The notes under the pieces are model-generated. The model was not told the origin of the DNA, made no database searches, and worked only from the letters and a program-made list of their open reading frames with translations. Shown in pieces: positions 4,804 through 38,070 of a stretch of DNA of 64,000 nt (the stretch's first letter is position 1; each line of letters opens with the position of its first letter). A program made the position numbers and the translations under genes. This DNA comes from Escherichia phage vB_EcoM-RPN242. The stretch lies in the sequence record OL656110.1; one strand, given 5' to 3'.

Positions 4804-5247
4804 TCAGTTGTTAACGCGGAATGCCGCCGGATACCCACCTGGATGCCCTTCTCCGGTCACGAAGACCTCGTACCGGGCACCTTTAACCAAACCAGGCAAA
4901 TTGCCTGAGTCAAGCAGATAGCGGATTTTATCCATAGTCTCCATCCAGGACTTAGCAGGTTCGGCCTCGGCCTCCCCACGGTTGATTTTGATCACACCCT
5001 CTGAATAATACTTCCCATTGTCCTTCATGTAGTACAGCTTGACATCGATAAACTGTGGGGATGGAACTTCTGTCCAACCCTCATCGTTCAAATCCTGGCG
5101 ATCATTGTCGAAACTCTGAAAATCAACATCACCGCATGCCAGGCGATAATCTTTGAATTTACGGAAACCTTCCACCTTGTCCCCAACGGAGCTACGGAAG
5201 AACTGTTTCTTGGCGGGACTAATGAAAATGAAATTCTTGTCACACAT
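4804..5247 (-). CDS. hypothetical protein, 147 aa
   Basis: Track start is TTG at 5268; ATG at 5247 has AAAGGAAGG 9 nt upstream. Confidence 0.5.
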   Translation of the reverse strand: MCDKNFIFISPAKKQFFRSSVGDKVEGFRKFKDYRLACGDVDFQSFDNDRQDLNDEGWTEVPSPQFIDVKLYYMKDNGKYYSEGVIKINRGEAEAEPAKSWMETMDKIRYLLDSGNLPGLVKGARYEVFVTGEGHPGGYPAAFRVNN

Positions 5248-5264
5248 GATATAGATCCTTCCTT

Positions 5265-5489
5265 TCAAAGAATGTTGTGTTCGTCGATATCGGACTGCGT
5301 TGCAATCTCCCAGCGGACGATGTTCTCGGTTGTGACGAAATCACGGTTCAGGTGAGAGGCTGGCACATACACCATCGTGTCGACCATGAAGTAACACTGC
5401 TCATTGTTACAAGAATCAACGTAAACCTCGATGAGGCACACCTCGGCAACACCGGCTTTCGGCTTCTTCACGATCTTTTTCAAGTACAT
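5265..5489 (-). CDS. hypothetical protein, 74 aa
   Basis: ATG start, GAGGG upstream. Confidence 0.45.
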   Translation of the reverse strand: MYLKKIVKKPKAGVAEVCLIEVYVDSCNNEQCYFMVDTMVYVPASHLNRDFVTTENIVRWEIATQSDIDEHNIL

Positions 5490-5514
5490 GGTACAACCCT
5501 CGGATAAGTAGACG

Positions 5515-5546
5515 GGGCAATAATACCTCTCGCCCCGTTATTGAAA
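5515..5546. repeat. 32-nt intergenic repeat, copy 1 (gggcaataatacctctcgccccgttattgaaa)
   Basis: Identical 32-mer recurs at 5775-5806, exactly 260 nt away; contains a hairpin. Confidence 0.7.
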
Positions 5547-5549
5547 CTG

Positions 5550-5750
5550 TTATCCTTCTTGTTCTTCCCAACCCCATTCATCTTCCCAAGACTGGCGAGG
5601 GGTCTTGCCTGCTTCGTAATCATCACGCCAGGCGTCGGCGTCGGCGGCTGAACCGCCCTGGCTTTTCGCGACTTTGCATAATACGTCGTGCCACTCACGG
5701 AAAGTGGAGTTGGCGACTGTGGTGTTTACAGAATCTTCTTTCAGGCTCAT
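5550..5750 (-). CDS. hypothetical acidic, Trp-rich protein, 66 aa
   Basis: Track start is TTG inside repeat copy 2; ATG at 5750 has GAGGAAATCACA upstream. Confidence 0.4.
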   Translation of the reverse strand: MSLKEDSVNTTVANSTFREWHDVLCKVAKSQGGSAADADAWRDDYEAGKTPRQSWEDEWGWEEQEG

Positions 5751-5774
5751 TGTGATTTCCTCGATTAATAGAGA

Positions 5775-5806
5775 GGGCAATAATACCTCTCGCCCCGTTA
5801 TTGAAA
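5775..5806. repeat. 32-nt intergenic repeat, copy 2
   Basis: Identical to 5515-5546. Confidence 0.7.
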
Positions 5807-5813
5807 TGTTCTT

Positions 5814-7286
5814 TTAGTTCAAGACATATTTGATCAGTCCACAATTCCAAATCCTGACCAACCCGGCTTCGGTTGCTAACTGGCTTTCTGTTTTGCCTTC
5901 TACGTCATACCCCATGCGAGCAAATGAACCTTTTCTGAAACCGAATTTGTGCTCACGCATAAATGTGCCAGGCTTGTGATATTTGTAGTCTGGCTTCTGT
6001 ACTTCCTCTTCTATGAATCCGTGGGATAGGTAAATGTTGGACAACCTGCTTACAACACACCTATCCCCAAAGGAATAGATTTTGGTGTCGGCAAATTTTC
6101 TTCTGAAGTGTGAAAGAAGTTTACTGAATGCCCCGTGGCAATCATTAGAGGCAAATCTGACTAATTCCAGGCCATCTTTCCTTTTAGTGAATAGCATCAC
6201 GGCTTGTATGACCCCACTCTTGTCAATTAACGATAAATGGTGGGTGGAAGAAACGGAACCTTGTATGTGGTGGTTGTCTAAAAACTCCCTCAAGCCGCTT
6301 ATATTTCCCCAAACGACTTTGTGTTGGCGAGCATATGACGCAGGCGTTTTAATGCCAAGTTTAGCTTTCAGAAGAGATTTGACCACTTCCTGTTTCTCAA
6401 CCCATTCATCTTCCCAGATGTGGATCAACTGGATACCCTGAGATTCACATATTTCAGTCTTTTCCAGGTGATAATATTTCTCTTTAAAAACTTCTGAATG
6501 CCAGTACAGGCCATTAAATTCAATCGCCAATTTGTGTTCAGGGCAATAGATATCCAGTTGTTTACCGGATAATATACTGTAATCAGAAACAGTGTTTACA
6601 ACTCCCATTGAGGTGAGAAACTCGGATATTTCCTTTTCATAAGAAGATTTCTTGTTCCTGATAGAACCATTGCTGAACAACGCACGTTTTAGTATGTTCG
6701 AGTTTTTCATAGGGTTGTCAACACCATAACGTTCTTGTAACGTTGCCAACGCCTTCTCCCTCACACCAGGTAATTGTAGTGTGGAGCAGCTTCCGTATTT
6801 GGATATATTCGAAGTCTCTATGGCTTTCCGACCAATCCCACCTTTACACATAGAAACCTGATAACATTCTTCAGAACAATATGTTCTGTAATCTTTATTA
6901 TTGATATAAAAGTTGGTTTCCTTGGAACACACCGGGCATATTTTCACGGTTCTATTGTACAGCCAAGCTGTGACTTTACAAGCCAAATCTTGTAGGGTGT
7001 TGTGGGTATTGGCGAACGCTAAAAGGTCTACATTGATGTGCTTCATAAGCAGTTCAGATTTGCATTTTTGGATATCCAATTTGTTGTTCTTGGTAAACAT
7101 ATATTTGTAGAAAAATTGGCGATATGATTCCTCGTCAGACAATTCATTCACTGCTTCAAGGAAACCTTCCGGGAGGTTCTTTAGGGTGTTCGATGCGAAG
7201 GTCTTGCAAGCATCTGAACAAAATTTCTTATCTTTCCTGGATGCTTTGAACTGTTCATGGCAGACACTACAGATTACCTGATACAT
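5814..7286 (-). CDS. putative free-standing homing-endonuclease-like protein with Vsr/DUF559-type nuclease motif and two Cys-pair zinc-finger-like elements
   Basis: LAIEFNGLYWHSE matches the Vsr-family (F/I)xDGxxWH signature; CSVCHEQF...CSDAC and CPVCSKE...CSEEC pairs; sits next to the capsid gene as segD does in T4. Track start 7382 runs through the terminator hairpin; re-called to ATG at 7286 (GGAGGAG upstream). Confidence 0.55.
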   Translation of the reverse strand: MYQVICSVCHEQFKASRKDKKFCSDACKTFASNTLKNLPEGFLEAVNELSDEESYRQFFYKYMFTKNNKLDIQKCKSELLMKHINVDLLAFANTHNTLQDLACKVTAWLYNRTVKICPVCSKETNFYINNKDYRTYCSEECYQVSMCKGGIGRKAIETSNISKYGSCSTLQLPGVREKALATLQERYGVDNPMKNSNILKRALFSNGSIRNKKSSYEKEISEFLTSMGVVNTVSDYSILSGKQLDIYCPEHKLAIEFNGLYWHSEVFKEKYYHLEKTEICESQGIQLIHIWEDEWVEKQEVVKSLLKAKLGIKTPASYARQHKVVWGNISGLREFLDNHHIQGSVSSTHHLSLIDKSGVIQAVMLFTKRKDGLELVRFASNDCHGAFSKLLSHFRRKFADTKIYSFGDRCVVSRLSNIYLSHGFIEEEVQKPDYKYHKPGTFMREHKFGFRKGSFARMGYDVEGKTESQLATEAGLVRIWNCGLIKYVLN

Positions 7287-26704: not shown

Positions 26705-26744
26705 TTTGATGCTCCATCGATAGGTGCCATTATAGAGATATTTA

Positions 26745-26755
26745 GTATACAACCA
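26745..26755 (-). promoter_or_regulatory. late promoter variant CTAAATATCTC
   Basis: About 40 nt upstream of ATG 26704. Confidence 0.5.
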
Positions 26756-27114
26756 ACCGAGGAATAGAAAGAAATAAGCCCGAAGGGGCTTTGATTATCT
26801 TTCTGTGGTTATGGTCATGGATTCAAGACCTCCGCATTCTTCAGGAACTATTGCAGGGGTGCTGGTACAGCCAGGGAATGGAGAACGCAAACAAGGCGAA
26901 CCAATGGAACCACAGTAGTAGGTTCAGATGCTAGTGTTAAGGTACAGGGTACAGACATTGCCAACAGAGATAACGTATTAGCCACTTACACACTTGGTTC
27001 GACAGACCCTTTCATGGTAGAAGGTATTCAATTGGGTATGTTTAATATCTCTGGGCAAGTAATCACCTTAACAGCAGTATCAATTAGGGTAATGCAAACA
27101 GTAAATTCTATATA

Positions 27115-27140
27115 AGAAAAGACCCCAAATGGGGTCTTAG
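27115..27140 (-). terminator. terminator hairpin AAGACCCCAAATGGGGTCTT after tailspike gene
   Basis: Minus strand: hairpin followed by TTTCTTATA. Confidence 0.6.
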
Positions 27141-27155
27141 TTTTACAGTTATAAG

Positions 27156-29381
27156 TCACGCTTCTGGCGAGGGGATAGTAAACCAATCGGACGCTGTTCC
27201 TGTTGTAGTGCCTTTATGCCTCCAGCCACTAACAGTTCTTTTTACCGTAGGGCTATCCTGCCAACCTGTTGCCGGGAGAAAGAAATTCCTCACTGGGGCG
27301 GGGTTTAACGCTCCAGTAGCTGGCGTGGCGGTTCCAGTCTGAGATGATACGAAGGTGGTTACTGTTGAGTAATCTATTACGTTATCATCATGAAACGCAT
27401 TCGTGTATAGATTTGCGGGTGCTGAGTTAACGAAGAATGCCGTAGTAACCCCGCTAACCTTGTTTCTATATACGTTGTTCCATCTACAGTTACCACCAAG
27501 GCGTATACCCTCAGAATCAGAAGCCCCCGCAATGGTGTTACTATCTATGTCACAATATTGGAAACTTTGAGCTACTAAAAACCGGCAACTATTACGCGTA
27601 ACCCTGCCGTAAGTAGACGTACCATTGGCATAGTAAACTGTTATATTGCCAGATGTTAAACAGTCTTTAATCGAGAAATTGGTCATAGGGCTAGTAAGGT
27701 ATACACTGCCAGTACCTTTCACTGTAATGTTTATATTTTTTCTAACTGTCAGGGTGTATGCGGGCGCGCTATACATACTGACTATATACCCGTTCGCCCC
27801 TGTATTTACAGGGACATTTGCATCCACTGTCACATAATCACAGTCCTTAATTAATATCGCAGCGGTTGTTTGAGCGCCAGTCTTTACGAATCTAATAGAC
27901 GGGTTTGTGATGGTAAAGTTCTGGCATTGCTCCATAAAGATAACGCCTGATACTTGATCGTCTGCCGCCAGCGAGTCTACAACAATACGCTGAGCACCAA
28001 ATGCCCCCATAACCCCATACTTTCCGCCTTTAATATAATCAGCATGGGTGTTGCAGTCGAAGCATTTTGCACCAAAATATATACCTCCGTTGTTGGCCGT
28101 AGGTTTTAGGGTGTTATGGGATGTACGGATGTTACGGCAGCCAGCATAAGATATTATTTGCGCATCCCCACCGGTCCCTCCAATGTGGGTCGTACCTGTA
28201 ACAGTACAATCTGTAGATCCGTAACCAAAAAATATATTACCATTTCCGACACGCCCGGTATGGGTAGTGTTGTGGTACACCACACCGTACGCGTTATCAT
28301 GCCTTGAACCGCCATTTCCATTATAATCAAAAACAGTACCATGGAACTCTATAAGCGAAGCCCCCACAGATTGGTACATGTAGCTAGACCCTGACGCAGA
28401 ATTTTTTAAGATTCCCCCGATGAACTTAGTAGCGTTGCCTTTTATAAGATAAATAACCGAATTGGTGGTAGTTAGGTCCCACGGTAAAGCCGTTGCTAAA
28501 TTTACGGTAGCACCTGATATGGACGAGATTAAAAAAGATTCGCCTTGGTATCCGGTTACATCCGGATTCTGTGCGTTGGCAATATACCAAGCGTCACTTG
28601 TGTCCTCAGTGCGTATTACCAACGCCCGAGTATACCCAGTTCCTGCCACCTCAGATGTTAATGTGATGGACGTTGCTCCGGAAGCCGCAGGGGAAAGCAA
28701 GCTGAATTGGCTCTCGCTGACGAAATTAAGAGCATTAGCGGTCAATGATGTCAACCCAGCACCGTGACCGAAAGTAAAAATCGTACCTTTTGGTATGTTG
28801 ACTTGTGAATGGGAAATTGTCATGCCCGGAGGAACAAAAACATTCCCCGAGTTAATGGCTAACTGTAAACTAGATGCCTCATCAGACCCATCACCGACAA
28901 CCCCAAAAGCACGCACGTCCCGTAAATTAGGATCTGTCTGCGGCTTCCAGTCAGCGTTACCAACTGGGTTAGTTCCTGCGACAATAGTTACAGGTAAGGA
29001 ACCTAAGTAGGTGTAACCTATGCCATTATAAAATAGTAATTCATTTCTAGTATTCACAACTAAACCAGTAGCAAACGAGTCGGATAGGTTCACGAACTCT
29101 CTACGTGTAGCAGCCAGTTCCCCCAAATCAACTGTGCCTGCGGAATGAACCAGGACTGCATGTTTATTGAGGCTTACGGCAGTGGTTCCTACTGGAAGTA
29201 CAGGTAATGAGTAAGCACGTTGGGTAGACTTGTCATAGATTACTTTGTAGCCACCCAAGTCCACTCCCACAGCAAAGTAGACTACTTCATTTTGCTTAAC
29301 ACCAAACTTACGAGCAATGGCTTGCTTATTGGTAAGAATACCAGTAGAGCCTTTACCGCCTTGTGAGAACATTTCGTTCAT
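27156..29381 (-). CDS. tailspike protein (741 aa)
   Basis: N-terminal module (KQAIARKFGVKQNEVVYF...YKVIYDKSTQRAYSLP...VDLGELA) is shared with the other tailspike genes. Confidence 0.7.
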   Translation of the reverse strand: MNEMFSQGGKGSTGILTNKQAIARKFGVKQNEVVYFAVGVDLGGYKVIYDKSTQRAYSLPVLPVGTTAVSLNKHAVLVHSAGTVDLGELAATRREFVNLSDSFATGLVVNTRNELLFYNGIGYTYLGSLPVTIVAGTNPVGNADWKPQTDPNLRDVRAFGVVGDGSDEASSLQLAINSGNVFVPPGMTISHSQVNIPKGTIFTFGHGAGLTSLTANALNFVSESQFSLLSPAASGATSITLTSEVAGTGYTRALVIRTEDTSDAWYIANAQNPDVTGYQGESFLISSISGATVNLATALPWDLTTTNSVIYLIKGNATKFIGGILKNSASGSSYMYQSVGASLIEFHGTVFDYNGNGGSRHDNAYGVVYHNTTHTGRVGNGNIFFGYGSTDCTVTGTTHIGGTGGDAQIISYAGCRNIRTSHNTLKPTANNGGIYFGAKCFDCNTHADYIKGGKYGVMGAFGAQRIVVDSLAADDQVSGVIFMEQCQNFTITNPSIRFVKTGAQTTAAILIKDCDYVTVDANVPVNTGANGYIVSMYSAPAYTLTVRKNINITVKGTGSVYLTSPMTNFSIKDCLTSGNITVYYANGTSTYGRVTRNSCRFLVAQSFQYCDIDSNTIAGASDSEGIRLGGNCRWNNVYRNKVSGVTTAFFVNSAPANLYTNAFHDDNVIDYSTVTTFVSSQTGTATPATGALNPAPVRNFFLPATGWQDSPTVKRTVSGWRHKGTTTGTASDWFTIPSPEA

Positions 29382-29669
29382 AATGACCTCTTTGTTTTTC
29401 TAAGTAAGCCTCCCAACGTGGGGAGGCATGTAAGTAAAGTTATTTACCGATTCTCAATTCAGCTAACCAACCTAGAATTTGTTTATTGATTCTAGACGGG
29501 TAAGCAGCCTCTAACCATGCACATCGGTCTGGTATTAAACCTCACCTTGAACCAGCAGGAGTAACAAATTCTTTCCATCCTTTCTGTAGAACTCAGGTAT
29601 ACGCTTCTTTAATACCATTATTACCAACAATACTTGCATACACAACAGACACTAAACTCTATATAAGAA

Positions 29670-29688
29670 AAGGTCCCGAATGGGACCT
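29670..29688 (-). terminator. terminator hairpin AGGTCCCGAATGGGACCT
   Basis: Just past gene end 29700; minus strand followed by TTTCTTATAT. Confidence 0.55.
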
Positions 29689-29699
29689 TTATAATAAAA

Positions 29700-32108
29700 T
29701 TAAGGGCTAACCCGATACCACCCGTCGTAGCTAATATACAAACGTTTACCGGACACAACTGCATCAATGCGAAGCGTTTTTTCACCTTCAGTAAAGAACG
29801 CTCCTCCAGTGTTCCCGATGTTCATTCGAAAGCTGGCTGGAATATTTCCAGAGGTAAAACCGATGTCCCCGTTGTTCACCCCTGTTACTGCTATGTATGC
29901 GTAATCCCGCGCGACAGGAAATCCTGTCACAGATATGAACTGACTGGTGCCGGAACTCCATTCAATTGTCACATCAAACACACCGAATATATGAGCAAAA
30001 TCTCCGACATAATTTATGTTATGTACGGTATACTCGCCGTATGATATCACCGCATTGGTGCCTGATTGAACTGTAATTTCAGGCGAACCGGGGTCATTCG
30101 CTAAGAAAGTACGGTCTGGTCTGATTTTGGCGGATGAATTCGCCACCGTTCTGGTAACGTTGTTGAGCCAACCGGCCTCCACCGGATCCCCATTTCGCGT
30201 AGACCTTACAATGTTGTTACGCAATATTGCGTTAAAAAACGTAATATCGGAGATGTAAATATTATGGTGCTGCCCGGCTACGGCCCCGCCAAACAACATC
30301 CCATTAGAGTTGTACTCATAAGATACGTTGTTCTCAATGATGCTGTTGCGCGCCACTCCATTTAATTCTAGCCATGATATGTTAGACGGGCCTGTGTAAT
30401 CAGAACCAAGTCTAATACTGGTGTTATTGGTGAATGAGCTATGGTCGAAATTATCCAATCTCCAGTTAATACCCAGAGTGCCTTCTTGACCATTCCCAGT
30501 TACCGTTACCCCTAGCAGGTTCTGTAATATATAGCCATAACACACTCTTGTCCTGTCCGGATAATAGTCGTTCCTGTTAGTGTGATCACAGGCATTAGCC
30601 TCTATAACAGAGTATTTAAGATCCCGATAGCAATGCCCATAATCACGGCAACTATTACTATAGTTAGTAGATATTACGCATGAAGTGCCGTTGTTTATAA
30701 ATATCCCACCGAGACATGCGGTAACGCGGTTGTTTCCTACTCGCGACGCAAATACAACAGGGAGAATTAGCCCATACTTGCAATCGTAAATATAGACGTC
30801 TTCTATCGTGGCGTCGGATACCACGCCTGCATTTACGATACCAAATTCTACCGCGTGGTTTTCCGTTGTAGTTTTTGTCCCATGCAGAGTAACCCCTGTG
30901 ATGACACCGGACCATCTTGAACTACTAGAATCCCCTAAACAAATAACCGCATTCATATCTGTAGGCAGGGTTCCGGTATATCCTCCAGATAGTGCAGGCG
31001 CCGTCACCAGAACTGTAACGGTAGTGGATGTCGTTTTCGTTATAGTAACTGATTCGCGACTTCTCCCTATTACTGATACATTCGATGGTAGAGCAAGAGT
31101 ACTGCTTATTTTATAGTTACCATCCGGGAAATAAACCACGCCTTTTGTGGTGCTGGCATAAGCTATAGCTGCTTTTATAGCTACCGTATCATCAGTAGCT
31201 CCGTCACCAACAGCACCAAAATCTTTAACGTTATAGTAGTCTTTAAAATGGCTATCAATGGTTCGCTTAATTGCAGAAGAAACACCAGATAAGCCAGAAT
31301 TTACTAATGTTCCCCCATCAGTAACCATAGCCGTTTTATATACCTGCAACTCATTCTCCACTGGAGTTACATCATTGGGTGCAGGGAGCAGGTCAACAAC
31401 AATCCCACCAGGATTGTATGTTAGTTGGTCACCATTAACGGAAGAAATATATACGTTAGTAGGCAATGTAGGCAACCCATATGCCTTCTGCTCACTAACA
31501 GAATAAATAATCTTCTTACCATTGAGGGACTGAGTAGTATCGGTGCTAAGAATTACTTCACTATCTTTAACGTTAGTAGCACGAGCGATTTCTTGAATAC
31601 TTCGGTCAAACAACGGACTGATATTCGGTTGTTTAACAGACATTTCAGCGACTACCCAAACGCCTGCTGTCAGCGCAGTTTGTAAAGACACTTTCCCTGT
31701 CGTGCTGTCATAGGAATATTCAATTTCGGGTGTTTTGTACTCACCACCGATATAAAGAGATTGGACTCCATAAGATGTGTAATCAGGAGTGAACTCGGTT
31801 TCACCTCCTATAGCCTGAAACTTATAGATTCGAATCCCAGTTTTATAATCTTCTGGAGACAGAATCTTATCAAACAGACAGAACACAACGTCACCTTTGG
31901 ATAATGCGCGTCCGAGATTTAACGTATTTCCATCGATTTCAAAGTTGTCTAACGGAACTTGCATACCACCGTTGATTGTGACTATACCAGTGACAGGGTA
32001 GAAAGGGAGGGAGATAAACTTCTCTCCGCCCGTTGCTGTGTAAGTGTATGGAATCTGGTGCGGAGCTGTTACGACCGCTCCAAAGATGCTCTCGACGTTT
32101 CTGGTCAT
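29700..32108 (-). CDS. tailspike protein (about 802 aa)
   Basis: ATG at 32108 follows GGGGTATTTTCAA; shares the module IARATNVKDSEVIL...KKIIYSVSEQKAYGLP with the others. Confidence 0.7.
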   Translation of the reverse strand: MTRNVESIFGAVVTAPHQIPYTYTATGGEKFISLPFYPVTGIVTINGGMQVPLDNFEIDGNTLNLGRALSKGDVVFCLFDKILSPEDYKTGIRIYKFQAIGGETEFTPDYTSYGVQSLYIGGEYKTPEIEYSYDSTTGKVSLQTALTAGVWVVAEMSVKQPNISPLFDRSIQEIARATNVKDSEVILSTDTTQSLNGKKIIYSVSEQKAYGLPTLPTNVYISSVNGDQLTYNPGGIVVDLLPAPNDVTPVENELQVYKTAMVTDGGTLVNSGLSGVSSAIKRTIDSHFKDYYNVKDFGAVGDGATDDTVAIKAAIAYASTTKGVVYFPDGNYKISSTLALPSNVSVIGRSRESVTITKTTSTTVTVLVTAPALSGGYTGTLPTDMNAVICLGDSSSSRWSGVITGVTLHGTKTTTENHAVEFGIVNAGVVSDATIEDVYIYDCKYGLILPVVFASRVGNNRVTACLGGIFINNGTSCVISTNYSNSCRDYGHCYRDLKYSVIEANACDHTNRNDYYPDRTRVCYGYILQNLLGVTVTGNGQEGTLGINWRLDNFDHSSFTNNTSIRLGSDYTGPSNISWLELNGVARNSIIENNVSYEYNSNGMLFGGAVAGQHHNIYISDITFFNAILRNNIVRSTRNGDPVEAGWLNNVTRTVANSSAKIRPDRTFLANDPGSPEITVQSGTNAVISYGEYTVHNINYVGDFAHIFGVFDVTIEWSSGTSQFISVTGFPVARDYAYIAVTGVNNGDIGFTSGNIPASFRMNIGNTGGAFFTEGEKTLRIDAVVSGKRLYISYDGWYRVSP

Positions 32109-32140
32109 TTGAAAATACCCCATAAAGGATTTGCCAATAT

Positions 32141-32185: not shown

Positions 32186-32220
32186 GAAACCCCGCCGAAG
32201 CGGGGCTAGTTTTTATTTGT
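32186..32220. terminator. hairpin CCCCGCCGAAGCGGGG with T-run on the plus side
   Basis: Same hairpin core as at 7347 and 34851; located just past the end of 32227..34776. Confidence 0.55.
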
Positions 32221-32226
32221 GGTGTG

Positions 32227-34776
32227 TCAATTGAGTTTTGATATCTCTACAGTTATACCGAATACGTTATTCGGTCTACTTGTGGTTGTAGCTATAGTTA
32301 GCTCAAAGAAATGCGCGTTTATATCTGGTGACTGTGTGTATCCCGCAGAATTAGTTAATGTTACATTGAGTGATATGTCCGAATCTGTTACGCCGTTTAT
32401 GCGAATTTCATTCACAGGTCCTGATAGCGACGCGGCGGAAGTTGCACCTATCTTATGATTTACCAGGTACGTCTTCTCAATATAAGCAACGGATCCCCCA
32501 TTATTATATGAAGAGCACGACTTAACTTTTACCAGTAGGTTTTGCGATTCTAATGTTCCATAGTTATCAAAAATCTTTAAAACTTTGTTAGCAGATGCAC
32601 CAGAAATGCTTCCACAGTTCACTTCCCATAATGTAGTTCTATTCGCATTCGGTGCGTTCTCATACATGTAGAAACTACCATCTGGAATTACCCTGTTGTT
32701 TATTAATGTTTTCAGATTTCCGCAGTTACCTATTAGTCTCACGTGGGCATTGATGTTTGTTAATGTTACTGTTTTTATTTTTGATTCTGTGTTTGCGCAC
32801 CTAATAGAACCACCCATGCAGTTAATATTTTCGTAATAGACATTACCAGCTTGCCACGGTAACGCGAAAATATCGTCCGCCCGGTTTTTATAATTGAGCG
32901 CAACATTAGCAGCAATCCAGTCTCGGTGCATAGAAGAATCACCAGTAAATGTGACGATACCTATTTGAGGGTCTTCTGCTGGGGTTGTGCCCAAACTGGC
33001 AACTATATTGATATCTGTCAGCTCACCACCAAGACATCTTATATTTGGCATATCATATTCTTCGGTGGCAAATACGTTACGCCATTTAGCATCAAAACCA
33101 GCGTGCGAGTCCATCGTGGCGAAGTTATTATAACCGAAGCACTTTTTAACCTCGAACTTGTTGAACCATGTTGTTGGGGAGGCAGCATGTCTACAGAATG
33201 ATGCTGTGATGCTATCAACAACTGTATCGTAAGTGCCCGCCGCAGGGCTGATAGGATACTGACACCTATTAGCAACTACATTGCCAATCCTTGGCATATA
33301 GCAAGCTATTAATAAGTACGAGGAACCACCACTGGTTTCCACGTCACCAGAAAAGACTGGCATATAAAAACCACGGAACCATGAAGATGAAACCCCAAAT
33401 GATGCGGTGCCTATATTAACAAAAGATGAGTTATCACGGTTGTTAAAGTGCTCCATCTTGAAGTTATTGAAAATCAACCTTACCGGTTTGTACCTGTTAA
33501 CCTTAACGTTGTTTGCTACTAGATGATCGAATAGCGCTGGCCTATCAACTTTCATATTAGAACCAGATTCACGCTCTGCAATAAACAACTCCCTTGAGTT
33601 AAAATTCCACTGAGTCTCGTACGTCTTGTTGTCCTCTATATAAATCAAATCACCCTCTACAGCCCCAGCCACCCGCGCAACTGTGGAGCCGCTTACCATA
33701 TCAGCTAGAAGTGAAGACTGAATCTCGGTTGATGACAGGTGCATTTCCACCCCATCAGAGGCCCCGAACAGCTTTATGCCAGACCAATCAACAACTAAGT
33801 TTTTATCAATCGACAATAGTTCTATATTACTGGTTACAGTAACCTCACCGACTGACCTGAAGTATCCACGGCACCCGGATGTGTAAGCTACAGTCAGGAA
33901 TTCAGATATAGTCTGGCCTGATACAGACCCTCCAGCGGTTATGCCGAAATCATCTCCGCAAATCGCGCTTATAGGGGTAAATGATGTTAATGCCGGCTGG
34001 GAAGCAGACCTGACCCACATTGTACCGCCGGTTGAGCATACCGAATCTACAGGTAACTCTGCCTCCGTGGACGCAATCATCTCGTAAAAAGAGGAGAAAT
34101 GTTTGTATATTCCAGCAACTTTGTAACCACCAGTTATAGGATTAGTCCCAGCGACAACTATACCAGCAGGACCGGAGAACGCCTTACCAGTGCGTTCTTG
34201 TAGTAGCACATCGTTGGCGTTCACTAGTGTACCGCCCGACTCAAAGCTACCATCTACTAGATTATAGCCTGCTGTTGCATAGCTACGGCGCAACGCCTCA
34301 CGGGTCTGTGTACTTGTGAACTGATTGGAGCACCTAATATAACCACTCCCTGGAAGAGTAGGGTCTGTGCCAGCAGGAACTACTTTAGGTAATGCCCCAT
34401 CCCAACGGTACTTCCCATCTGTAAAGACAACTAATTCATTCTTGGTATTAACTGTTACACCGGTATCAAATGACCCAGACAATGTGACGTACTCTTCACG
34501 AGATACAGCCAATTCCCCGAGATCTACAGAACCTGCTGAATGTACCAGGATTGCCTGTTCGTTCAGACTTATCGCAGTCGTTCCTGAAACAATACCTGAA
34601 GGAAGAGAATAAGCCCGTTGGGTAGACTCATCATAAATTACTTTAAATCCACTGAGATCAATACCAGCAGTGAAATAAATGACTTCGTCTTCTTTGACAC
34701 CGAAATTTCGAGCGATAGATTGTTTGTTAACTTCTATGGAAGTGGAGCCGCGTGGTTGATTGAATTGAGAAATCAT
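32227..34776 (-). CDS. tailspike protein (849 aa)
   Basis: Shared N-terminal module; contains a 160-bp segment nearly identical to one in the next gene. Confidence 0.7.
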   Translation of the reverse strand: MISQFNQPRGSTSIEVNKQSIARNFGVKEDEVIYFTAGIDLSGFKVIYDESTQRAYSLPSGIVSGTTAISLNEQAILVHSAGSVDLGELAVSREEYVTLSGSFDTGVTVNTKNELVVFTDGKYRWDGALPKVVPAGTDPTLPGSGYIRCSNQFTSTQTREALRRSYATAGYNLVDGSFESGGTLVNANDVLLQERTGKAFSGPAGIVVAGTNPITGGYKVAGIYKHFSSFYEMIASTEAELPVDSVCSTGGTMWVRSASQPALTSFTPISAICGDDFGITAGGSVSGQTISEFLTVAYTSGCRGYFRSVGEVTVTSNIELLSIDKNLVVDWSGIKLFGASDGVEMHLSSTEIQSSLLADMVSGSTVARVAGAVEGDLIYIEDNKTYETQWNFNSRELFIAERESGSNMKVDRPALFDHLVANNVKVNRYKPVRLIFNNFKMEHFNNRDNSSFVNIGTASFGVSSSWFRGFYMPVFSGDVETSGGSSYLLIACYMPRIGNVVANRCQYPISPAAGTYDTVVDSITASFCRHAASPTTWFNKFEVKKCFGYNNFATMDSHAGFDAKWRNVFATEEYDMPNIRCLGGELTDINIVASLGTTPAEDPQIGIVTFTGDSSMHRDWIAANVALNYKNRADDIFALPWQAGNVYYENINCMGGSIRCANTESKIKTVTLTNINAHVRLIGNCGNLKTLINNRVIPDGSFYMYENAPNANRTTLWEVNCGSISGASANKVLKIFDNYGTLESQNLLVKVKSCSSYNNGGSVAYIEKTYLVNHKIGATSAASLSGPVNEIRINGVTDSDISLNVTLTNSAGYTQSPDINAHFFELTIATTTSRPNNVFGITVEISKLN

Positions 34777-34848: not shown

Positions 34849-34872
34849 AGAACCCCGCCGAAGCGGGGTTTA
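34849..34872. terminator. hairpin CCCCGCCGAAGCGGGG
   Basis: Third copy of this hairpin core; just past gene end 34876. Confidence 0.55.
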
Positions 34873-34875
34873 TTG

Positions 34876-37800
34876 TTATGATGCATTTGCTGATTTGTTT
34901 AAATACCATCCGTAGTTCGTTTTTATTAACTCTACAATCTCCCCGTTTGTCTTGTATTTTGTCTTCCCGGTTTCTGTATTATACATAATTCTGTCGGTGA
35001 CAGAGACGCCGGACGCTTGTTTTGAAAGCGTCACAACAGTGTTGCCGGATAACGGAAGTATTGATATCCTTTGTCCGATATATCCACCAGTGATTGACGT
35101 TATCACTGATCCATTACTTCCAGCGTCGAGATAAAATACGTCGCAAGAGTTGGCATCTAATGTAGTTGTTTCAGTTGTTAGCGTTTTCGTTGGCGACGAA
35201 ATACCAAGCACAAATGATGAACCGTTCCATGTATATTCTTTGCCGTCAGCAAGACCAATCACTCGCTCGTTGATTCTTAAATCGGGTGCAAAAGTCTTTC
35301 TAATGTCAACAATTTTAATAGTGCCACAAAACGGGACAGGGATAATCACGTTACCTGCAAGCCTGTTAATAGTGTAAATTGAATTGCTGATCGTCCACTG
35401 TCTACCGTTCCACATACTCATAAATGAACCAGAAGATAGAAGCACGGTTGAACTGTAACCTGCTTCCAAAGCATTTGTGTCTGTTATCATGCCGCGATCA
35501 ATAGGATTGCTAAAATCGTCAGAGCAGTCGAATACTCTAATGTTTGCACGTCCTTCATAATTACCTGATTGACCAACAGGTGCGATAACAAAGAGATAAT
35601 CCTTATCAAAACCATAATCAGGGCCAACGCGTAAGAACGACGCCATACAGTTAGTGGTAGGGAACTGTCCTTTTACAACCCACTTTCCACTAGAATCTTG
35701 CATCAATAGCTTTTGAATGGCTATTTTGTACGGCTTAGTGGTCGTATCTGCTGCGCGCTCAATGGCAAACGGTGTTCCGTCATAAAAATTTCCGAAACCA
35801 ATTTCACCGCCAGATGTACCGAGAGTATCGGTATCCGTGTCTTTCCTGACATCTTCACCGTAGGTGTAGTTACCGCTATCATCAACTGTGATATACCCCT
35901 CAACTATTCCGGTAGATAGTTGAGTTAAATAATAATAAGGAATTGCAGGCTTGCCATTTATGTACCCGACTTGTGTAGGTGCAATTGATGAGAAGTAAGC
36001 ACCAGATGGTTTAACCAATGGCGTAATATCAACAGGGGTGCTCCATGTATTGCCACCATCCTTTGATATGACATATTCAATAGTTGATGTTGTGTCAGGG
36101 TTAGTTCCTTGTTGTGCATGCCCCCACCCAGTAATCCCCTTCATTGATGTAAAGAAACAATACAAATATCCATCAAGATTATTTAGGAATAGTACCGTTT
36201 CAGAAGTGGCATATCCTGGCCCTTTGTTAACAACAGTTCCAGTGGTCCAGTTCACACCGTTATCATCAGATATTAGGTAATCAATGTGCATAGGTGTGCC
36301 GTCCTGTCCTGGGTCAATATTAGCACCATCCTTCACTGTGTAGATACATACCACCCGCCCACTTGGAAGTGACACCGCTTTTGGTGCAAAGTTAAATACA
36401 TTCTCCACATAAGTTTGCAACTGTAAGCGCAAATTATTGTTAAAGCTTCTTGAGTATTTATTCCCAAAAGCGAAATTAAATCTATTTTTTGCAATTGATT
36501 GCCTTTTGTAAAGCTCAAAATCTTTATCCTTGACTGCTCCGTTAACTAAATCAACTCCGTCATCATCAGCCAGGTCACTTCTTAAACTTACATCACCAAC
36601 ACTTAACCATTTTCCTGCACCAGTACCACCAGCACTCCCTGGGGTTGAGCCAGCAGAAACCTCTTTAGGCAATTCCCCATCCCAGCGATACTTCCCATCT
36701 GTAAAGACAACTAATTCATTCTTGGTATTAACTGTTACACCGGTATCAAATGACCCGGACAATGTGACGTACTCTTCACGAGATACAGCCAATTCCCCGA
36801 GATCTACAGAACCCGCTGAATGCACAAGTACAGCGGAAGGACTAAGACTGACAGCAGTAGTACCAGGGGCAATATCAGCAGGCAAGGGATAAGCCCTTTG
36901 CGTCTCCTTGTCATAAATAACTTTATACCCACTTAACGCAGCACCAACACTAAAATAAACGACCTCTGTATCTTTAACATTGGTTACACGAGCAACTTCC
37001 CGCAAAGTATAATCAATTTGATTGTAGATGTTTGGTGTTCCATTGATAATTACAACAACTTCATCCTCTGGTTCCAGTTCTTGCGCAAGAGTGATTTTAC
37101 TGGTTGATGGATCGAATGTGAATCCCAGATTTTTATACTGGCGACTTCCGTTTATATCAATGGCCGGAACATCGTCAACAACGACGTCCAACGTGATTTC
37201 GGTTTCACCGCCAATCGCTGAACCCCCATTATAGACCCAGGTAATCGTAGAAGAACCAGAACCACCGACATTACCCAATTGAATAGGAGTATATTCAATC
37301 ACCTGAAGTTCTGTGCTGGCTGGCAAAGAAGGACTGAAAGTGATTACATTCCCATCTAGTGAATATTTGGATTCCGCAAGACGTTTTCCGTCAGCATACA
37401 CGTCCACGATTGTTGGTGGAGTATTGAGAGCGACAGAACTTGTTTCAGACGCCAAAATTTTTGTAAAGATTTCACGACTGTAGACACGGCCTTGGCCAAG
37501 ACCGACGCCGGATGTAATAATCCAACCTTGTTCAGGTCCAGACCAAGTGAACGTTGCTGATACGTTATCAGTTGTTATAGCCATGTCTTCAGTGGAGCCA
37601 TACAAATTATTTCCAGAAGGAGACACGGTCAATGGGTAAGTGGCAAATTTCCCATAAGCATCACAAATAGTAACGGAATCCCCAATACGCGTAGGGGAAG
37701 GGAGAACCACTGTAGATGCCCCTGTGGTATTATTAATGAGATAGCCTCGCCCTTCAGTGAGCGTTGCCGTAGAGGCATGCGGAAGGACTTCCCAGCGGAT

Positions 37801-38037
37801 ACCACCGCCACCCAGCGGCAACCATCCACCATTTTCATAGAAGCCCTCAAATTCGTCGGAGTCGGCATTGTAGCGAACGGAAGACGGGAGTCCTGCGCTG
37901 GCATTACCCTCGGGTAAAGTCAGGACAGCATCTGGTCCATGCTCAATCGTACCCGTGTTGAGGAGACCAGCCAAAGTAGACTGCTCTTCAGCCGCCAGAC
38001 CGAGAGGGAAAACAGGCTGTGTTGGTTTATTAGCCAT
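34876..38037 (-). CDS. long tailspike protein (about 1053 aa) with extended N-terminal domain
   Basis: ATG 38037 follows GGGGTATTTGAA; internal copy of the shared module (VARVTNVKDTEVVYF...YKVIYDKETQRAYPLP...VDLGELAVSREEYVTLSGSFDTGVTVNTKNELVVFTDGKYRWDG). Confidence 0.7.
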   Translation of the reverse strand: MANKPTQPVFPLGLAAEEQSTLAGLLNTGTIEHGPDAVLTLPEGNASAGLPSSVRYNADSDEFEGFYENGGWLPLGGGGIRWEVLPHASTATLTEGRGYLINNTTGASTVVLPSPTRIGDSVTICDAYGKFATYPLTVSPSGNNLYGSTEDMAITTDNVSATFTWSGPEQGWIITSGVGLGQGRVYSREIFTKILASETSSVALNTPPTIVDVYADGKRLAESKYSLDGNVITFSPSLPASTELQVIEYTPIQLGNVGGSGSSTITWVYNGGSAIGGETEITLDVVVDDVPAIDINGSRQYKNLGFTFDPSTSKITLAQELEPEDEVVVIINGTPNIYNQIDYTLREVARVTNVKDTEVVYFSVGAALSGYKVIYDKETQRAYPLPADIAPGTTAVSLSPSAVLVHSAGSVDLGELAVSREEYVTLSGSFDTGVTVNTKNELVVFTDGKYRWDGELPKEVSAGSTPGSAGGTGAGKWLSVGDVSLRSDLADDDGVDLVNGAVKDKDFELYKRQSIAKNRFNFAFGNKYSRSFNNNLRLQLQTYVENVFNFAPKAVSLPSGRVVCIYTVKDGANIDPGQDGTPMHIDYLISDDNGVNWTTGTVVNKGPGYATSETVLFLNNLDGYLYCFFTSMKGITGWGHAQQGTNPDTTSTIEYVISKDGGNTWSTPVDITPLVKPSGAYFSSIAPTQVGYINGKPAIPYYYLTQLSTGIVEGYITVDDSGNYTYGEDVRKDTDTDTLGTSGGEIGFGNFYDGTPFAIERAADTTTKPYKIAIQKLLMQDSSGKWVVKGQFPTTNCMASFLRVGPDYGFDKDYLFVIAPVGQSGNYEGRANIRVFDCSDDFSNPIDRGMITDTNALEAGYSSTVLLSSGSFMSMWNGRQWTISNSIYTINRLAGNVIIPVPFCGTIKIVDIRKTFAPDLRINERVIGLADGKEYTWNGSSFVLGISSPTKTLTTETTTLDANSCDVFYLDAGSNGSVITSITGGYIGQRISILPLSGNTVVTLSKQASGVSVTDRIMYNTETGKTKYKTNGEIVELIKTNYGWYLNKSANAS

Positions 38038-38070
38038 TTCAAATACCCCTAAATGTGTTCGTTTCATCTA

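What the first reader, a model, noticed from the sequence alone, without database searches (positions are those of the whole stretch)
26753..27116. Unusually long untranslated gaps upstream of two late genes
Gaps of about 360 nt (26753-27116) and about 290 nt (29382-29668) separate a terminator from the next start codon in an otherwise tightly packed module. Both end with nearly the same sequence before the hairpin (aaattctatataagaaaag versus aaactctatataagaaaag). The first contains a coding-like but stop-interrupted frame on the plus strand, and the tailspike gene starting at 29381 lacks a CTAAATA motif. These may be remnants of deleted or exchanged spike modules or long structured leaders.
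Basis: seen in the sequence. Interest (0 to 1): 0.4.

Follow-up and report, generated by a model that had tools for sequence, protein, structure and literature searches.

The report
Recombination scars between phage tailspike genes
The two long gaps in this phage's tailspike gene cluster are leftovers of spike-gene swaps with unrelated N4-like phages, including a dead piece of a neighbouring gene from the donor that still serves as a site for further swaps; this is an ordinary phenomenon.

Summary
The window is an Ackermannviridae (Agtrevirus-like) phage, 98.8% identical to Escherichia phage PC3. Its late genes TSP4, TSP3, TSP2, TSP1 and vriC lie on the minus strand.

Both gaps are composite recombination scars, not structured leaders.

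Gap 1 holds vriC's own CTAAATA promoter and hairpin, the last ~14 codons of a displaced TSP1, and the last ~92 codons (plus strand, 26841-27115) of a ~208-aa Gamaleyavirus gene, phrog_17779. That piece is 96.5% identical in protein to its podophage homologue but has no start codon and carries a frameshift. It arrived with the donor terminator and the TSP1 cassette; phage nithesis matches 26841-29402 at 93.7%.

Gap 2 holds the same type of terminator, the last 7 codons of the same podophage gene (the shared 19-mer), about 60 codons of an older spike's C-terminal chaperone tail with two TGA stops, then a hairpin and the ribosome-binding site.

Copies in related phages differ mainly at third codon positions. 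PC3 carries a nithesis-identical patch whose crossover lies inside the fragment. The scar is therefore still used as a homology arm.

TSP1 normally has no late promoter of its own. Novelty and interest are modest.

The parts
26739..26745 (-). CTAAATA late-promoter motif of vriC, whose ATG is at 26704. This is native Ackermannviridae sequence.
   Evidence: 15 matches against 4.9 expected, positioned upstream of vriC, TSP2, TSP3 and TSP4. The motif is invariant in 8 Ackermannviridae loci.
26776..26791 (-). Native intrinsic-terminator hairpin (AAGCCCCTTCGGGCTT followed by a T-rich tail) that ended the original TSP1 transcript.
   Evidence: -9 kcal/mol. It is conserved in all relatives, including vB_CECAV_050, where it directly follows the intact TSP1 stop codon.
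26795..26839 (-). Last ~14 codons plus stop (...ESMTITTER*) of the displaced resident TSP1 gene, which was CECAV_050-like.
   Evidence: Alignment A1. In CECAV_050 this is the real 3' end of TSP1. LHE287 keeps about 240 nt of it.
26841..27115 (+). Dead 3' fragment (about 92 codons plus TAA) of the Gamaleyavirus gene phrog_17779. It has a 1-nt deletion near 26857 and no usable start codon.
   Evidence: 87-90% nt identity to about 20 G7C-like podophages. tblastn gives 96.5% aa identity over 85 aa, E 6e-50. Translations are. phrog_17779 matches at E 2e-116. The full-length gene occurs only in ~70-kb Schitoviridae.
27119..27138 (-). G7C-type intrinsic terminator that came in with the TSP1 cassette. 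In the donor it is shared by the two convergent genes.
   Evidence: -14.8 kcal/mol. The same hairpin is found in nithesis, Bp4, PC3, A221, SKML-39 and CAU_YEP3, with compensatory stem changes.
27156..29381 (-). TSP1 tailspike gene (741 aa), exchanged as a cassette with G7C-like podophages.
   Evidence: Phage nithesis matches window 26841-29402 at 93.7%. Context is and mosaic patterns.
29382..29402 (-). Conserved TAGAAAAACAAAGAGG ribosome-binding region upstream of TSP1, shared by Ackermannviridae and Gamaleyavirus. It is the 5' limit of homology with nithesis.
29408..29427 (-). Hairpin between the old spike's stop codon and the TSP1 ribosome-binding site. A hairpin at this position, with differing stem sequences, is present in all relatives.
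   Evidence: ten loci; -14.4 kcal/mol.
29440..29619 (-). Pseudogene remnant: the last ~60 codons plus stop of an earlier spike gene of the S74 intramolecular-chaperone type. It has two in-frame TGA stops at 29593-29595 and 29542-29544.
   Evidence: tblastn hits the extreme C-termini of spike and fibre proteins (SD2 at E 2e-4; EK8 and Kayfunavirus weaker). phrog_1171 tail spike matches at positions 899-951 of 954, E 2.4e-4. The three homologues carry PF13884 just upstream of the aligned part.
29646..29666 (+). Last 6 codons plus stop (QTLNSI*) of phrog_17779. This is the shared '19-mer' and marks a Gamaleyavirus origin for the TSP2 cassette end.
   Evidence: The scrap is absent from the Kagunavirus-like contig that carries the same receptor-binding domain and terminator.
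29669..29690 (-). G7C-type intrinsic terminator imported with the TSP2 receptor-binding domain. It now sits between TSP2 and the promoterless TSP1.
   Evidence: -14.3 kcal/mol, z = -4.5.
29700..32123 (-). TSP2 tailspike gene. The N-terminal ~358 aa are family-conserved. The C-terminal receptor-binding half is foreign.
   Evidence: N-terminus shared with many Ackermannviridae; C-terminal half found only in PC3/PH4 among phage records; 90-92% aa identity in metagenomic siphophage-like and T7-like contigs.

Best explanation
Both gaps are non-coding scar tissue left by replacement of tailspike cassettes through recombination with G7C-like N4 podophages (Gamaleyavirus, Schitoviridae).

Each gap has the same four layers, read in the direction of transcription on the minus strand:
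1. The intrinsic terminator that travelled with the imported spike.
2. A hitchhiking 3' piece of the donor's convergent neighbour gene, phrog_17779: 92 codons in gap 1 and 7 codons in gap 2.
3. The stranded 3' end of the spike gene that was displaced: about 14 codons in gap 1 and about 60 codons with two stops in gap 2.
4. The resident downstream signals: hairpin plus CTAAATA promoter for vriC in gap 1, and hairpin plus ribosome-binding site for TSP1 in gap 2.

The pieces do not encode anything now. What they still do is inferred.
- The terminators end the spike transcripts. TSP1 has no promoter of its own, so it must be expressed by read-through from the TSP2 promoter.
- The ~275-nt podophage fragment plus terminator provides a downstream homology arm. 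The conserved anchor-domain and ribosome-binding region is the upstream arm. Together they let further spike exchange occur between the two phage families.

Shown here: the homologies, the junctions, the pseudogene state, and the mosaic patch in PC3. Inferred: terminator activity, read-through, and the direction and timing of individual events.
For: Identity of the window and gene order.

Gap 1 fragment:
- Window 26841-27145 is 87-90% identical to the 3' end of a ~208-aa plus-strand gene that lies convergent to the tailspike gene in nithesis, Bp4, pSb-1 and UE-S5.
- It is 96.5% identical in protein over 85 aa, E 6e-50.
- Phage nithesis matches 26841-29402 as one block: fragment, terminator, TSP1 and ribosome-binding site.
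- Full-length copies occur only in ~70-kb Schitoviridae. All Ackermannviridae copies cover 38% or less of the protein.

Decay of the fragment:
- The window copy has a frameshift and no start codon.
- fGh-Ecl02 has a stop plus a frameshift. SKML-39 has a frameshift. CAU_YEP3 and YX22 retain only 35 codons.

Old TSP1 remnant:
- vB_CECAV_050 has the compact 95-nt vriC-TSP1 spacer, and its real TSP1 3' end matches 26795-26839.
- LHE287 retains about 240 nt of that gene. The junctions in the window, fGh-Ecl02, CAU_YEP3 and YX22 are nested deletions of such a state.

Ongoing use as a homology arm:
- Differences between Ackermannviridae copies are concentrated at third codon positions. Counts at positions 1, 2 and 3 are 4, 2, 22; 5, 0, 23; and 5, 2, 34, with binomial p from 1e-6 to 1e-10. 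The copies therefore diverged as a working gene in podophages.
- PC3 matches nithesis at all but 5 of the variable sites from 27064 to 27978. It matches the window at 22 of the 23 variable sites from 26857 to 27055, all 22 of which differ from nithesis, and again from 28064 onward. One crossover therefore lies inside the fragment.

Gap 2:
- The terminator plus QTLNSI* scrap matches the Gamaleyavirus gene end.
- The same receptor-binding domain and terminator occur in a Kagunavirus-like contig without the scrap.
- The minus-frame pseudo-peptide matches spike C-termini.

No RNA structure signal.

TSP1 lacks CTAAATA in 8 of 9 relatives, and is usually about 50 nt downstream of TSP2.

Literature: PMC10408124 (section 20) independently proposes a conserved terminator motif downstream of receptor-binding protein genes in Gamaleya-, Kutter- and Justusliebigviruses as a recombination hotspot.
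Against: - The spike-remnant assignment in gap 2 rests on weak scores: E about 2e-4 by two methods. The Pfam scan was negative, and the 5.8-billion-protein word search found no close intact relative.
- No sequenced Ackermannviridae TSP2 matches the gap 2 remnant, so the 'resident' spike may itself have been foreign.
- The Gamaleyavirus donor of the TSP2 domain was not found in the phage records, IMG/VR or the metagenome pattern scans. That origin therefore rests on a 21-27-nt scrap.
- Identical deletion junctions in the window and SKML-39, despite 11% divergence, require either gene conversion almost up to the junction or recurrent repeat-mediated deletion.
- No transcription data exist, so terminator strength and TSP1 read-through are untested.
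Confidence: 0.85

Rival explanations
1. The gaps are long structured 5' leaders or cis-regulatory RNAs that control vriC and TSP1 expression.
For: Each gap contains strong local hairpins. Gap 1 folds slightly better than shuffles, z = -1.85.
Against: - Gap 2 has z = -0.13.
- Rfam gives no match above the gathering score; the only hit is a hairpin-type Histone3 match at 19.7 bits against 34.
- The vriC promoter motif sits only about 35 nt from the ATG, so most of gap 1 lies upstream of the promoter.
- Relatives function with a 95-nt vriC-TSP1 spacer and a ~50-nt TSP2-TSP1 spacer.
- The sequence is explained base by base by gene remnants, and relatives carry different deletions of it.
Confidence: 0.04
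2. The phrog_17779 piece in gap 1 is still a functional small gene, expressed as a truncated C-terminal domain from the plus strand.
For: The frame is open for about 86 codons and the protein sequence is 96.5% conserved. fGh-Ecl02 annotators called a 47-aa ORF here.
Against: - There is no ATG, GTG or TTG at the start of the open frame. The only internal ATG would give about 33 aa, and the ORF listing reports no plus-strand ORF of at least 40 aa ending at 27115.
- A frameshift lies at about 26857.
- Relatives have stops, frameshifts and deletions down to 35 codons.
- The high protein conservation is explained by divergence within functional donor genes.
Confidence: 0.03
3. The scars are kept by selection as dedicated acceptor sites ('landing pads') for capturing spikes from podophages, rather than being neutral leftovers that happen to recombine.
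For: - The fragment persists next to at least five unrelated TSP1 receptor-binding domains: window/PC3/A221, SKML-39, fGh-Ecl02, LHE287, and CAU_YEP3/YX22.
- There is evidence of repeated gene conversion and a crossover inside the fragment.
- A minimal 35-codon piece next to the terminator is retained even in the most deleted copies, and in some Gamaleyaviruses themselves.
Against: - Most Ackermannviridae lack the fragment. Only about 8-9 genomes carry it.
- Nested deletions show erosion.
- Persistence of the terminator-proximal part is also expected simply because deletions that reach the terminator or spike gene are harmful.
- No fitness or frequency data exist.
Confidence: 0.2
4. The gap 2 body (29440-29619) is not a spike remnant but unrelated filler DNA, and the weak protein similarities are chance.
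For: E-values are only about 2e-4. Pfam is negative. No close homologue was found among 5.8 billion proteins. At the nucleotide level only PC3 and PH4 match.
Against: - Two different methods hit the same thing: the extreme C-terminus of tail spike families.
- The pseudo-ORF's stop codon coincides with the family C-terminus, at phrog_1171 positions 899-951 of 954.
- Both in-frame stops are TGA, at positions where homologues have Trp (TGG) or Arg (CGA), one transition away.
- The remnant is followed by the hairpin plus ribosome-binding motif that follows the upstream spike gene in every relative.
Confidence: 0.12

Closest known systems
Conserved up- and downstream DNA motifs around receptor-binding domains, proposed as cross-genus recombination hotspots (PMC10408124, section 20; 'motif three' is a ~20-nt predicted terminator 0-19 nt after the stop codon in Gamaleya-, Kutter- and Justusliebigviruses)
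   Same: A predicted terminator lies 9 and 17 nt after the TSP2 and TSP1 stop codons. It is shared between Gamaleyavirus and Ackermannviridae, and it is associated with exchange of receptor-binding domains across families.
   Different: Here the shared downstream sequence is not just about 20 nt. It is about 300 nt, because it includes a dead piece of a podophage gene. That piece gives the direction of transfer and serves as a real homology arm, with a mapped crossover in PC3. I could not compare the published motif sequence, because it is given only in figure images.
Tailspike module exchange between Ackermannviridae (CBA120, Det7) and podophages (G7C gp63.1/gp66, P22-like), known at the protein level (PMC8432352; Plattner 2019 and Walter 2008, as cited there)
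   Same: The N-terminal anchor domains are conserved and the receptor-binding parts are swapped. G7C-like phages and Ackermannviridae share spikes.
   Different: Those studies compare proteins. This finding concerns the non-coding debris the swaps leave behind, and shows whole-cassette transfer at 93.7% nucleotide identity, including flanking non-spike DNA.
Gene remnants and pseudogenes at mosaic junctions of phage genomes (general knowledge of phage mosaicism)
   Same: Truncated, frame-broken pieces of genes mark illegitimate joins. They erode by nested deletions.
   Different: The remnant here shows third-codon-biased divergence between copies. This means it is repeatedly overwritten from functional donors rather than merely decaying in place.
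phrog_17779, a ~208-aa protein of unknown function in Gamaleyavirus, Triduovirus and other Schitoviridae (variously annotated 'tail needle knob', 'protease' or 'hypothetical')
   Same: The gap 1 translation is 96.5% identical to residues 124-208.
   Different: Only the C-terminal 44% is present. It has no start codon and carries a frameshift, so it is a fragment and not a functioning member of the family.

Membership tests
phrog_17779 (Gamaleyavirus ~208-aa gene convergent to the tailspike gene) | Significant sequence homology to family members | tested here: met
   tblastn gives 96.5% identity over 85 aa, E 6e-50. Nucleotide identity is 87-90%. The donor protein matches phrog_17779 at E 2e-116.
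phrog_17779 (Gamaleyavirus ~208-aa gene convergent to the tailspike gene) | Complete open reading frame with a start codon (about 208 aa) | tested here: not met
   Only residues ~118-208 are present. There is a 1-nt deletion near 26857, no start codon, and no plus-strand ORF of at least 40 aa ending at 27115. It is a gene fragment, not a gene.
Rho-independent (intrinsic) terminator | G+C-rich stem-loop followed by a T/U-rich tract on the transcribed (minus) strand, just after a stop codon | tested here: met
   Sites on the minus strand: 29690-29669 (9 bp), 27138-27119 (8 bp) and 26791-26776 (6 bp). Energies are -14.3, -14.8 and -9 kcal/mol.
Rho-independent (intrinsic) terminator | Termination of transcription in infected cells | not testable with these tools
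   This needs Term-seq, RNA-seq or Northern data.
Tailspike with C-terminal intramolecular chaperone domain (Peptidase_S74 / endosialidase chaperone type) | Homology of the gap 2 minus-strand pseudo-peptide to the C-terminal tail of such spikes | tested here: inconclusive
   tblastn gives E 2e-4 (SD2) and 4e-3 (EK8). phrog_1171 matches at E 2.4e-4, positions 899-951 of 954. SD2, EK8 and the UE-S5b K5 lyase all carry PF13884 upstream of the aligned part. The scores are weak, and the large protein search found nothing.
Tailspike with C-terminal intramolecular chaperone domain (Peptidase_S74 / endosialidase chaperone type) | Presence of the PF13884 core and an intact reading frame | tested here: not met
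   There is no Pfam hit. Two in-frame TGA stops are present, and only about 60 terminal codons remain. It is a remnant only.
Structured cis-regulatory RNA or long leader | Match to a curated RNA family, or folding energy clearly below shuffled controls | tested here: not met
   Rfam gives only a sub-threshold hairpin hit. z = -0.13 for gap 2 and -1.85 for gap 1.
Ackermannviridae late transcription unit (CTAAATA-type promoter immediately upstream of the gene) | CTAAATA motif within about 40 nt upstream of the start codon | tested here: not met
   The motif is absent within 400 nt upstream of TSP1 in the window and in 7 of 8 relatives. It is present for vriC, TSP2, TSP3 and TSP4. TSP1 is therefore best read as the second gene of the TSP2 transcription unit.
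'Motif three' downstream receptor-binding-protein terminator of PMC10408124 | About 20 nt, starting 0-19 nt after the stop codon, predicted to be a terminator, shared by Gamaleya- and Kutterviruses | tested here: inconclusive
   Position (9 and 17 nt after the stop codons), terminator prediction and cross-family sharing all fit. The published motif sequence is available only as an image, so identity could not be checked.

The most novel reading that the evidence does not exclude
The dead podophage gene fragment next to the spike terminator is not just debris. It may be a maintained 'acceptor site' that gives these myophages a ~300-nt homology arm to G7C-like podophages. Paired with the conserved anchor-domain and ribosome-binding arm, it would let them capture ready-made tailspikes from an unrelated phage family during co-infection. 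The PC3 patch and the third-codon-biased divergence between copies would be footprints of that traffic.
Probability: 0.2. Interest if true: 0.55.

Novelty: new member of a known kind. Interest (0 to 1): 0.32.

Why it matters
- It explains, base by base, why a tightly packed tailspike cluster has two long 'empty' stretches, so these need not be chased as regulatory RNAs or missed genes.
- It shows direction. Schitoviridae DNA, including a non-spike gene piece, entered Ackermannviridae.
- It locates real crossover points, which is useful for understanding and predicting host-range shifts in phages with several spikes.
- It flags that in this phage TSP1 sits behind an imported terminator with no promoter of its own. 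This could lower its dosage in the branched spike complex.
- For annotation, ORFs called in this region in related records (for example a 47-aa 'protease-like' protein in fGh-Ecl02) are probably pseudogene pieces.

Tried and rejected
- Structured-leader or riboswitch idea. Whole-gap folds and Rfam were negative.
- Gap 2 as a longer copy of the same phrog_17779 fragment. tblastn with four family members found nothing in gap 2 beyond the last 7 codons.
- Multiple independent insertions to explain the different left junctions in fGh-Ecl02, CAU_YEP3 and YX22. I dropped this after LHE287 showed a longer ancestral state from which all of them derive by nested deletions. YX22 does carry a second copy, at the TSP2/TSP3 spacer.
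- Search for the Gamaleyavirus donor of the TSP2 receptor-binding domain. Phage records gave only PC3 and PH4. The big protein search gave a Kagunavirus-like contig and a T7-like contig. Exact-pattern scans of IMG/VR and metagenomes found nothing new.
- Search for an intact close relative of the gap 2 pseudo-peptide among 5.8 billion proteins. No candidates were found. Pfam on the pseudo-peptide was also negative.
- Function of phrog_17779. There was no Pfam or NCBIfam hit. The only PDB hit was a weak match of residues 6-44 to a phage decoration protein, E 0.0035. Its function remains unknown.
- A sigma-70-type promoter for TSP1 in gap 2. None was found on the minus strand.
Full report
**What the window is.** The region around the finding is 98.8% identical to Escherichia phages PC3 and PH4 (Ackermannviridae, Aglimvirinae) over 4.5 kb. 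The late genes lie on the minus strand in this order:
- TSP4, 34876-38067
- TSP3, 32227-34776
- TSP2, 29700-32123
- TSP1, 27156-29381
- vriC, whose annotated start in PC3 maps to the ATG at 26704

**Check of the observation.**
- The TSP2-TSP1 spacer is 318 nt.
- The TSP1-vriC spacer is 451 nt.
- The other inter-spike spacers are about 100 nt.
- The two 19-mers, at 27103-27121 and 29654-29672, differ at one base. They are the only matches in 64 kb even with 3 mismatches allowed, against 0.03 expected.
- Each 19-mer abuts a strong hairpin that scores as an intrinsic terminator on the minus strand.
- CTAAATA occurs 15 times against 4.9 expected. It sits directly upstream of vriC, TSP2, TSP3 and TSP4, but not TSP1.
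- The plus-strand frame in gap 1 is open for about 86 codons up to the TAA at 27113-27115.

**Gap 1: the main piece comes from a podophage.**
- A sensitive nucleotide search with gap 1 hit about 20 Gamaleyavirus genomes (G7C-like N4 podophages of ~72 kb) at 87-90% identity over window 26841-27145.
- In those phages the matching DNA is the 3' end of a ~208-aa gene. That gene lies on the opposite strand to the tailspike gene and converges on it, so the two share one hairpin.
- The gap 1 translation is 96.5% identical to residues 124-208 of the nithesis protein, E 6e-50.
- The family is phrog_17779 and its function is unknown. It has no Pfam or NCBIfam model. The only structural hit is a weak N-terminal resemblance to a decoration protein.
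- Full-length copies occur only in ~70-kb Schitoviridae. Every Ackermannviridae copy covers 38% or less of the protein.
- Phage nithesis matches window 26841-29402 at 93.7% as one block: the fragment, the terminator, the whole TSP1 gene and its ribosome-binding site.

The TSP1 cassette was therefore exchanged with a G7C-like podophage, and the end of the donor's neighbouring gene came along with it. In the window the fragment has a 1-nt deletion near 26857 and no start codon. It is a dead gene piece.

**Gap 1: the remainder is native.**
- Alignment of eight Ackermannviridae loci shows that 26705-26839 is family sequence. It holds the vriC ribosome-binding site, the CTAAATA motif, a terminator hairpin at 26776-26791, and the last ~14 codons plus stop of a TSP1 gene.
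- In Salmonella phage vB_CECAV_050 those codons are the real end of TSP1, and the vriC-TSP1 spacer is only 95 nt.
- Phage LHE287 keeps about 240 nt of that old TSP1 gene ahead of the podophage fragment.
- The junctions in the window, PC3, A221 and SKML-39, in fGh-Ecl02, and in CAU_YEP3 and YX22 all derive from such a state by nested deletions. The window-type deletion lies between two copies of a short direct repeat, GACCTCYGC(C)ATT.
- Relatives show further decay. fGh-Ecl02 has a stop and a frameshift, SKML-39 has a frameshift, and CAU_YEP3 and YX22 retain only 35 codons.

**The scar is still recombining.** Two results show this.
- First, differences between Ackermannviridae copies fall mostly on third codon positions of the dead frame. 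Counts at positions 1, 2 and 3 are 4, 2, 22 for window against SKML-39; 5, 0, 23 against fGh-Ecl02; and 5, 2, 34 against LHE287. Binomial p ranges from 1e-6 to 1e-10. Neutral decay in place cannot produce that pattern. The copies diverged as working genes, that is, inside podophages, and were re-imported.
- Second, a site-by-site comparison shows a mosaic patch in PC3. From 26857 to 27055, PC3 equals the window and A221 at 22 of 23 variable sites, and all 22 of those sites differ from nithesis. From 27064 to 27978, PC3 matches nithesis at all but 5 of the variable sites. From 28064 onward, PC3 is window-like again.

One crossover of this ~900-nt patch therefore lies between 27055 and 27064, inside the fragment. 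The fragment plus terminator acts as a downstream homology arm.

The upstream arm is the anchor-domain coding region and the motif TAGAAAAACAA(A/T)GAGG before the ATG. Both families share these.

A221 and the window are about 99% identical from gap 1 through about 28500. They diverge by 13-22% in the anchor region, which places another breakpoint at the anchor/receptor-binding boundary.

**Gap 2.** At the nucleotide level only PC3 and PH4 match it. Read on the minus strand from the TSP2 stop codon, it contains four elements:
1. A terminator at 29669-29690.
2. The reverse complement of CAG ACA CTA AAC TCT ATA TAA at 29646-29666. This encodes QTLNSI*, against QTVNSI* at the end of phrog_17779.
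3. A reading frame, ...NGIKEAYT*VLQKGWKEFVTPAGSR*GLIPDRCAWLEAAYPSRINKQILGWLAELRIGK*, with two TGA stops.
4. A hairpin at 29408-29427 and the conserved ribosome-binding motif.

The pseudo-peptide matches the extreme C-termini of spike and fibre proteins.
- It matches phage SD2 at E 2e-4, and EK8 and Kayfunavirus 'endosialidase' proteins more weakly.
- It matches phrog_1171 'tail spike protein' at positions 899-951 of 954, E 2.4e-4.
- SD2, EK8 and the UE-S5b K5 lyase all carry the Peptidase_S74 chaperone core just upstream of the aligned stretch.
- The two stops sit where homologues have Arg and Trp, each one transition away from TGA.

I read this as the stranded 3' end of an earlier spike gene in the TSP2 slot. 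Confidence is about 0.8, because the scores are weak and a 5.8-billion-protein search found no close intact relative.

**Origin of the TSP2 cassette.**
- The first ~358 residues of TSP2 are shared with many Ackermannviridae TSP2 proteins.
- Among phage records, the receptor-binding half matches only PC3 and PH4.
- In metagenomes the same domain is 90-92% identical in protein in a 42.6-kb siphophage-like contig and in a T7-like contig.
- The siphophage contig shares 91% nucleotide identity down to and including the terminator, but not the QTLNSI* scrap.

The terminator therefore travels with the domain across phage types. The scrap says the immediate donor was a Gamaleyavirus, or a phage that had acquired the cassette from one. 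That donor was not found.

**Expression consequences (inferred).**
- The vriC promoter motif is only about 35 nt from the ATG, so gap 1 is not a leader.
- TSP1 has no CTAAATA within 400 nt in the window or in 7 of 8 relatives. It normally lies about 50 nt after TSP2, separated only by a hairpin. TSP1 is therefore normally co-transcribed with TSP2.
- In this phage and in PC3/PH4, the imported terminator and the old remnant now lie between TSP2 and TSP1. TSP1 must depend on read-through.
- Whole-gap RNA folding gives z = -0.13 (gap 2) and -1.85 (gap 1), and Rfam gives nothing above threshold. The structured-leader idea is not supported.

**Comparison with what is known.**
- Exchange of spikes between Ackermannviridae and G7C-like phages is known at the protein level. 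Homologous recombination through conserved N-termini and flanks has been proposed and reproduced experimentally within the family (PMC8432352, PMC11414711).
- PMC10408124 reports a conserved ~20-nt predicted terminator just downstream of receptor-binding protein genes in Gamaleya-, Kutter- and Justusliebigviruses, and proposes it as a recombination hotspot. The hairpins here fit that description. I could not compare sequences because the motif is shown only as an image.
- None of the papers I read mentions gene remnants in these spacers.

What this analysis adds is modest. It gives the anatomy of the gaps, identifies a hitchhiking podophage gene piece that fixes the direction of transfer, and shows that this piece still takes part in recombination.

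**Verdict.** This is an ordinary kind of feature, recombination scars and pseudogene remnants, resolved well enough that it need not be pursued as a regulatory element or a missed gene. It is a new member of a known kind, with interest of about 0.3.

Noticed in passing
window 29408-29427 and 29382-29402; equivalent positions in L002-L005 and L010-L014: A hairpin sits just upstream of the TSP1 ribosome-binding site in all ten Ackermannviridae and Gamaleyavirus loci examined. Stem sequences differ but pairing is preserved (for example CCCCTC/GAGGGG, CCCCGC/GCGGGG, CCACCCC/GGGGTGG, GCCTCCC/GGGAGGC). It is followed by the nearly invariant TTT(A/C)CTAGAAAAACAA(A/T)GAGG. It could be a leaky terminator, an attenuator or an mRNA-stability element between the two spike genes.
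   Followed up: partly
window 32190-32205 and 34855-34870: The hairpins after TSP3 and TSP4 are identical (CCCCGCCGAAGCGGGG). The same stem is found downstream of phrog_17779 in Gamaleyavirus UE-S5b (which has a different loop), and the identical hairpin in one YX22 scar, with near-identical ones in the other YX22 scar and in LHE287. This is a second terminator type shared across the two families, and is perhaps the published 'motif three'.
   Followed up: partly
window about 28900-29000 (TSP1 codons about 130-160): TSP1 in the window and in PC3 lacks 72 nt (24 codons, in frame) compared with A221 and nithesis, near the boundary between the anchor domain and the receptor-binding domain. The window and A221 are about 99% identical 3' of about 28500 but 13-22% divergent 5' of it, so a recombination breakpoint lies here.
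   Followed up: partly
L013 (Escherichia phage YX22) 6002-6223 and 1121-1225: YX22 carries two separate phrog_17779 fragments. One is in the vriC-TSP1 spacer (35 codons). A longer one (74 codons) lies between two other spike genes. The same kind of scar therefore occurs at more than one slot of the spike cluster.
   Followed up: partly
L015 (ERZ507891 NODE_348, 42.6 kb) 5001-7028 and L016 (ERZ27239232 k141_320698) 499-2769: The TSP2 receptor-binding domain of this phage is 90-92% identical in protein to spikes in a siphophage-like contig (tape-measure gene upstream; DNA polymerase A and SNF2 helicase genes downstream) and in a T7-like contig (T7 tail-fibre N-terminus, with a holin gene downstream). 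One domain is thus circulating among at least three virion types.
   Followed up: partly
phage records ECBP1, EC1-UPM, vB_EcoP_PE007, vB_EcoM_PD205, vB_EcoP-ZQ2: Several Gamaleyaviruses themselves retain only the last ~35 codons of phrog_17779 next to the terminator. The gene is therefore dispensable in its native family too, and the terminator-proximal stub is what persists.
   Followed up: no
L007 (Salmonella phage vB_SalP_TR2) 3780-3890 and 4138-4776: The N-terminal ~40 residues of phrog_17779 are duplicated in the adjacent 'putative head protein' gene. They weakly resemble a phage capsid decoration protein in the PDB (9d82_J, E 0.0035). The C-terminal ~150 residues occur fused to collagen-like proteins in Aeromonas phages. 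This hints at a small virion-surface fibre or decoration protein.
   Followed up: no
L010 (Salmonella phage SKML-39), 53 nt upstream of the TSP1 ATG: SKML-39 is the only relative examined with a CTAAATA motif before TSP1. The motif overlaps the TSP2 stop codon, so it may have gained a separate TSP1 promoter.
   Followed up: no
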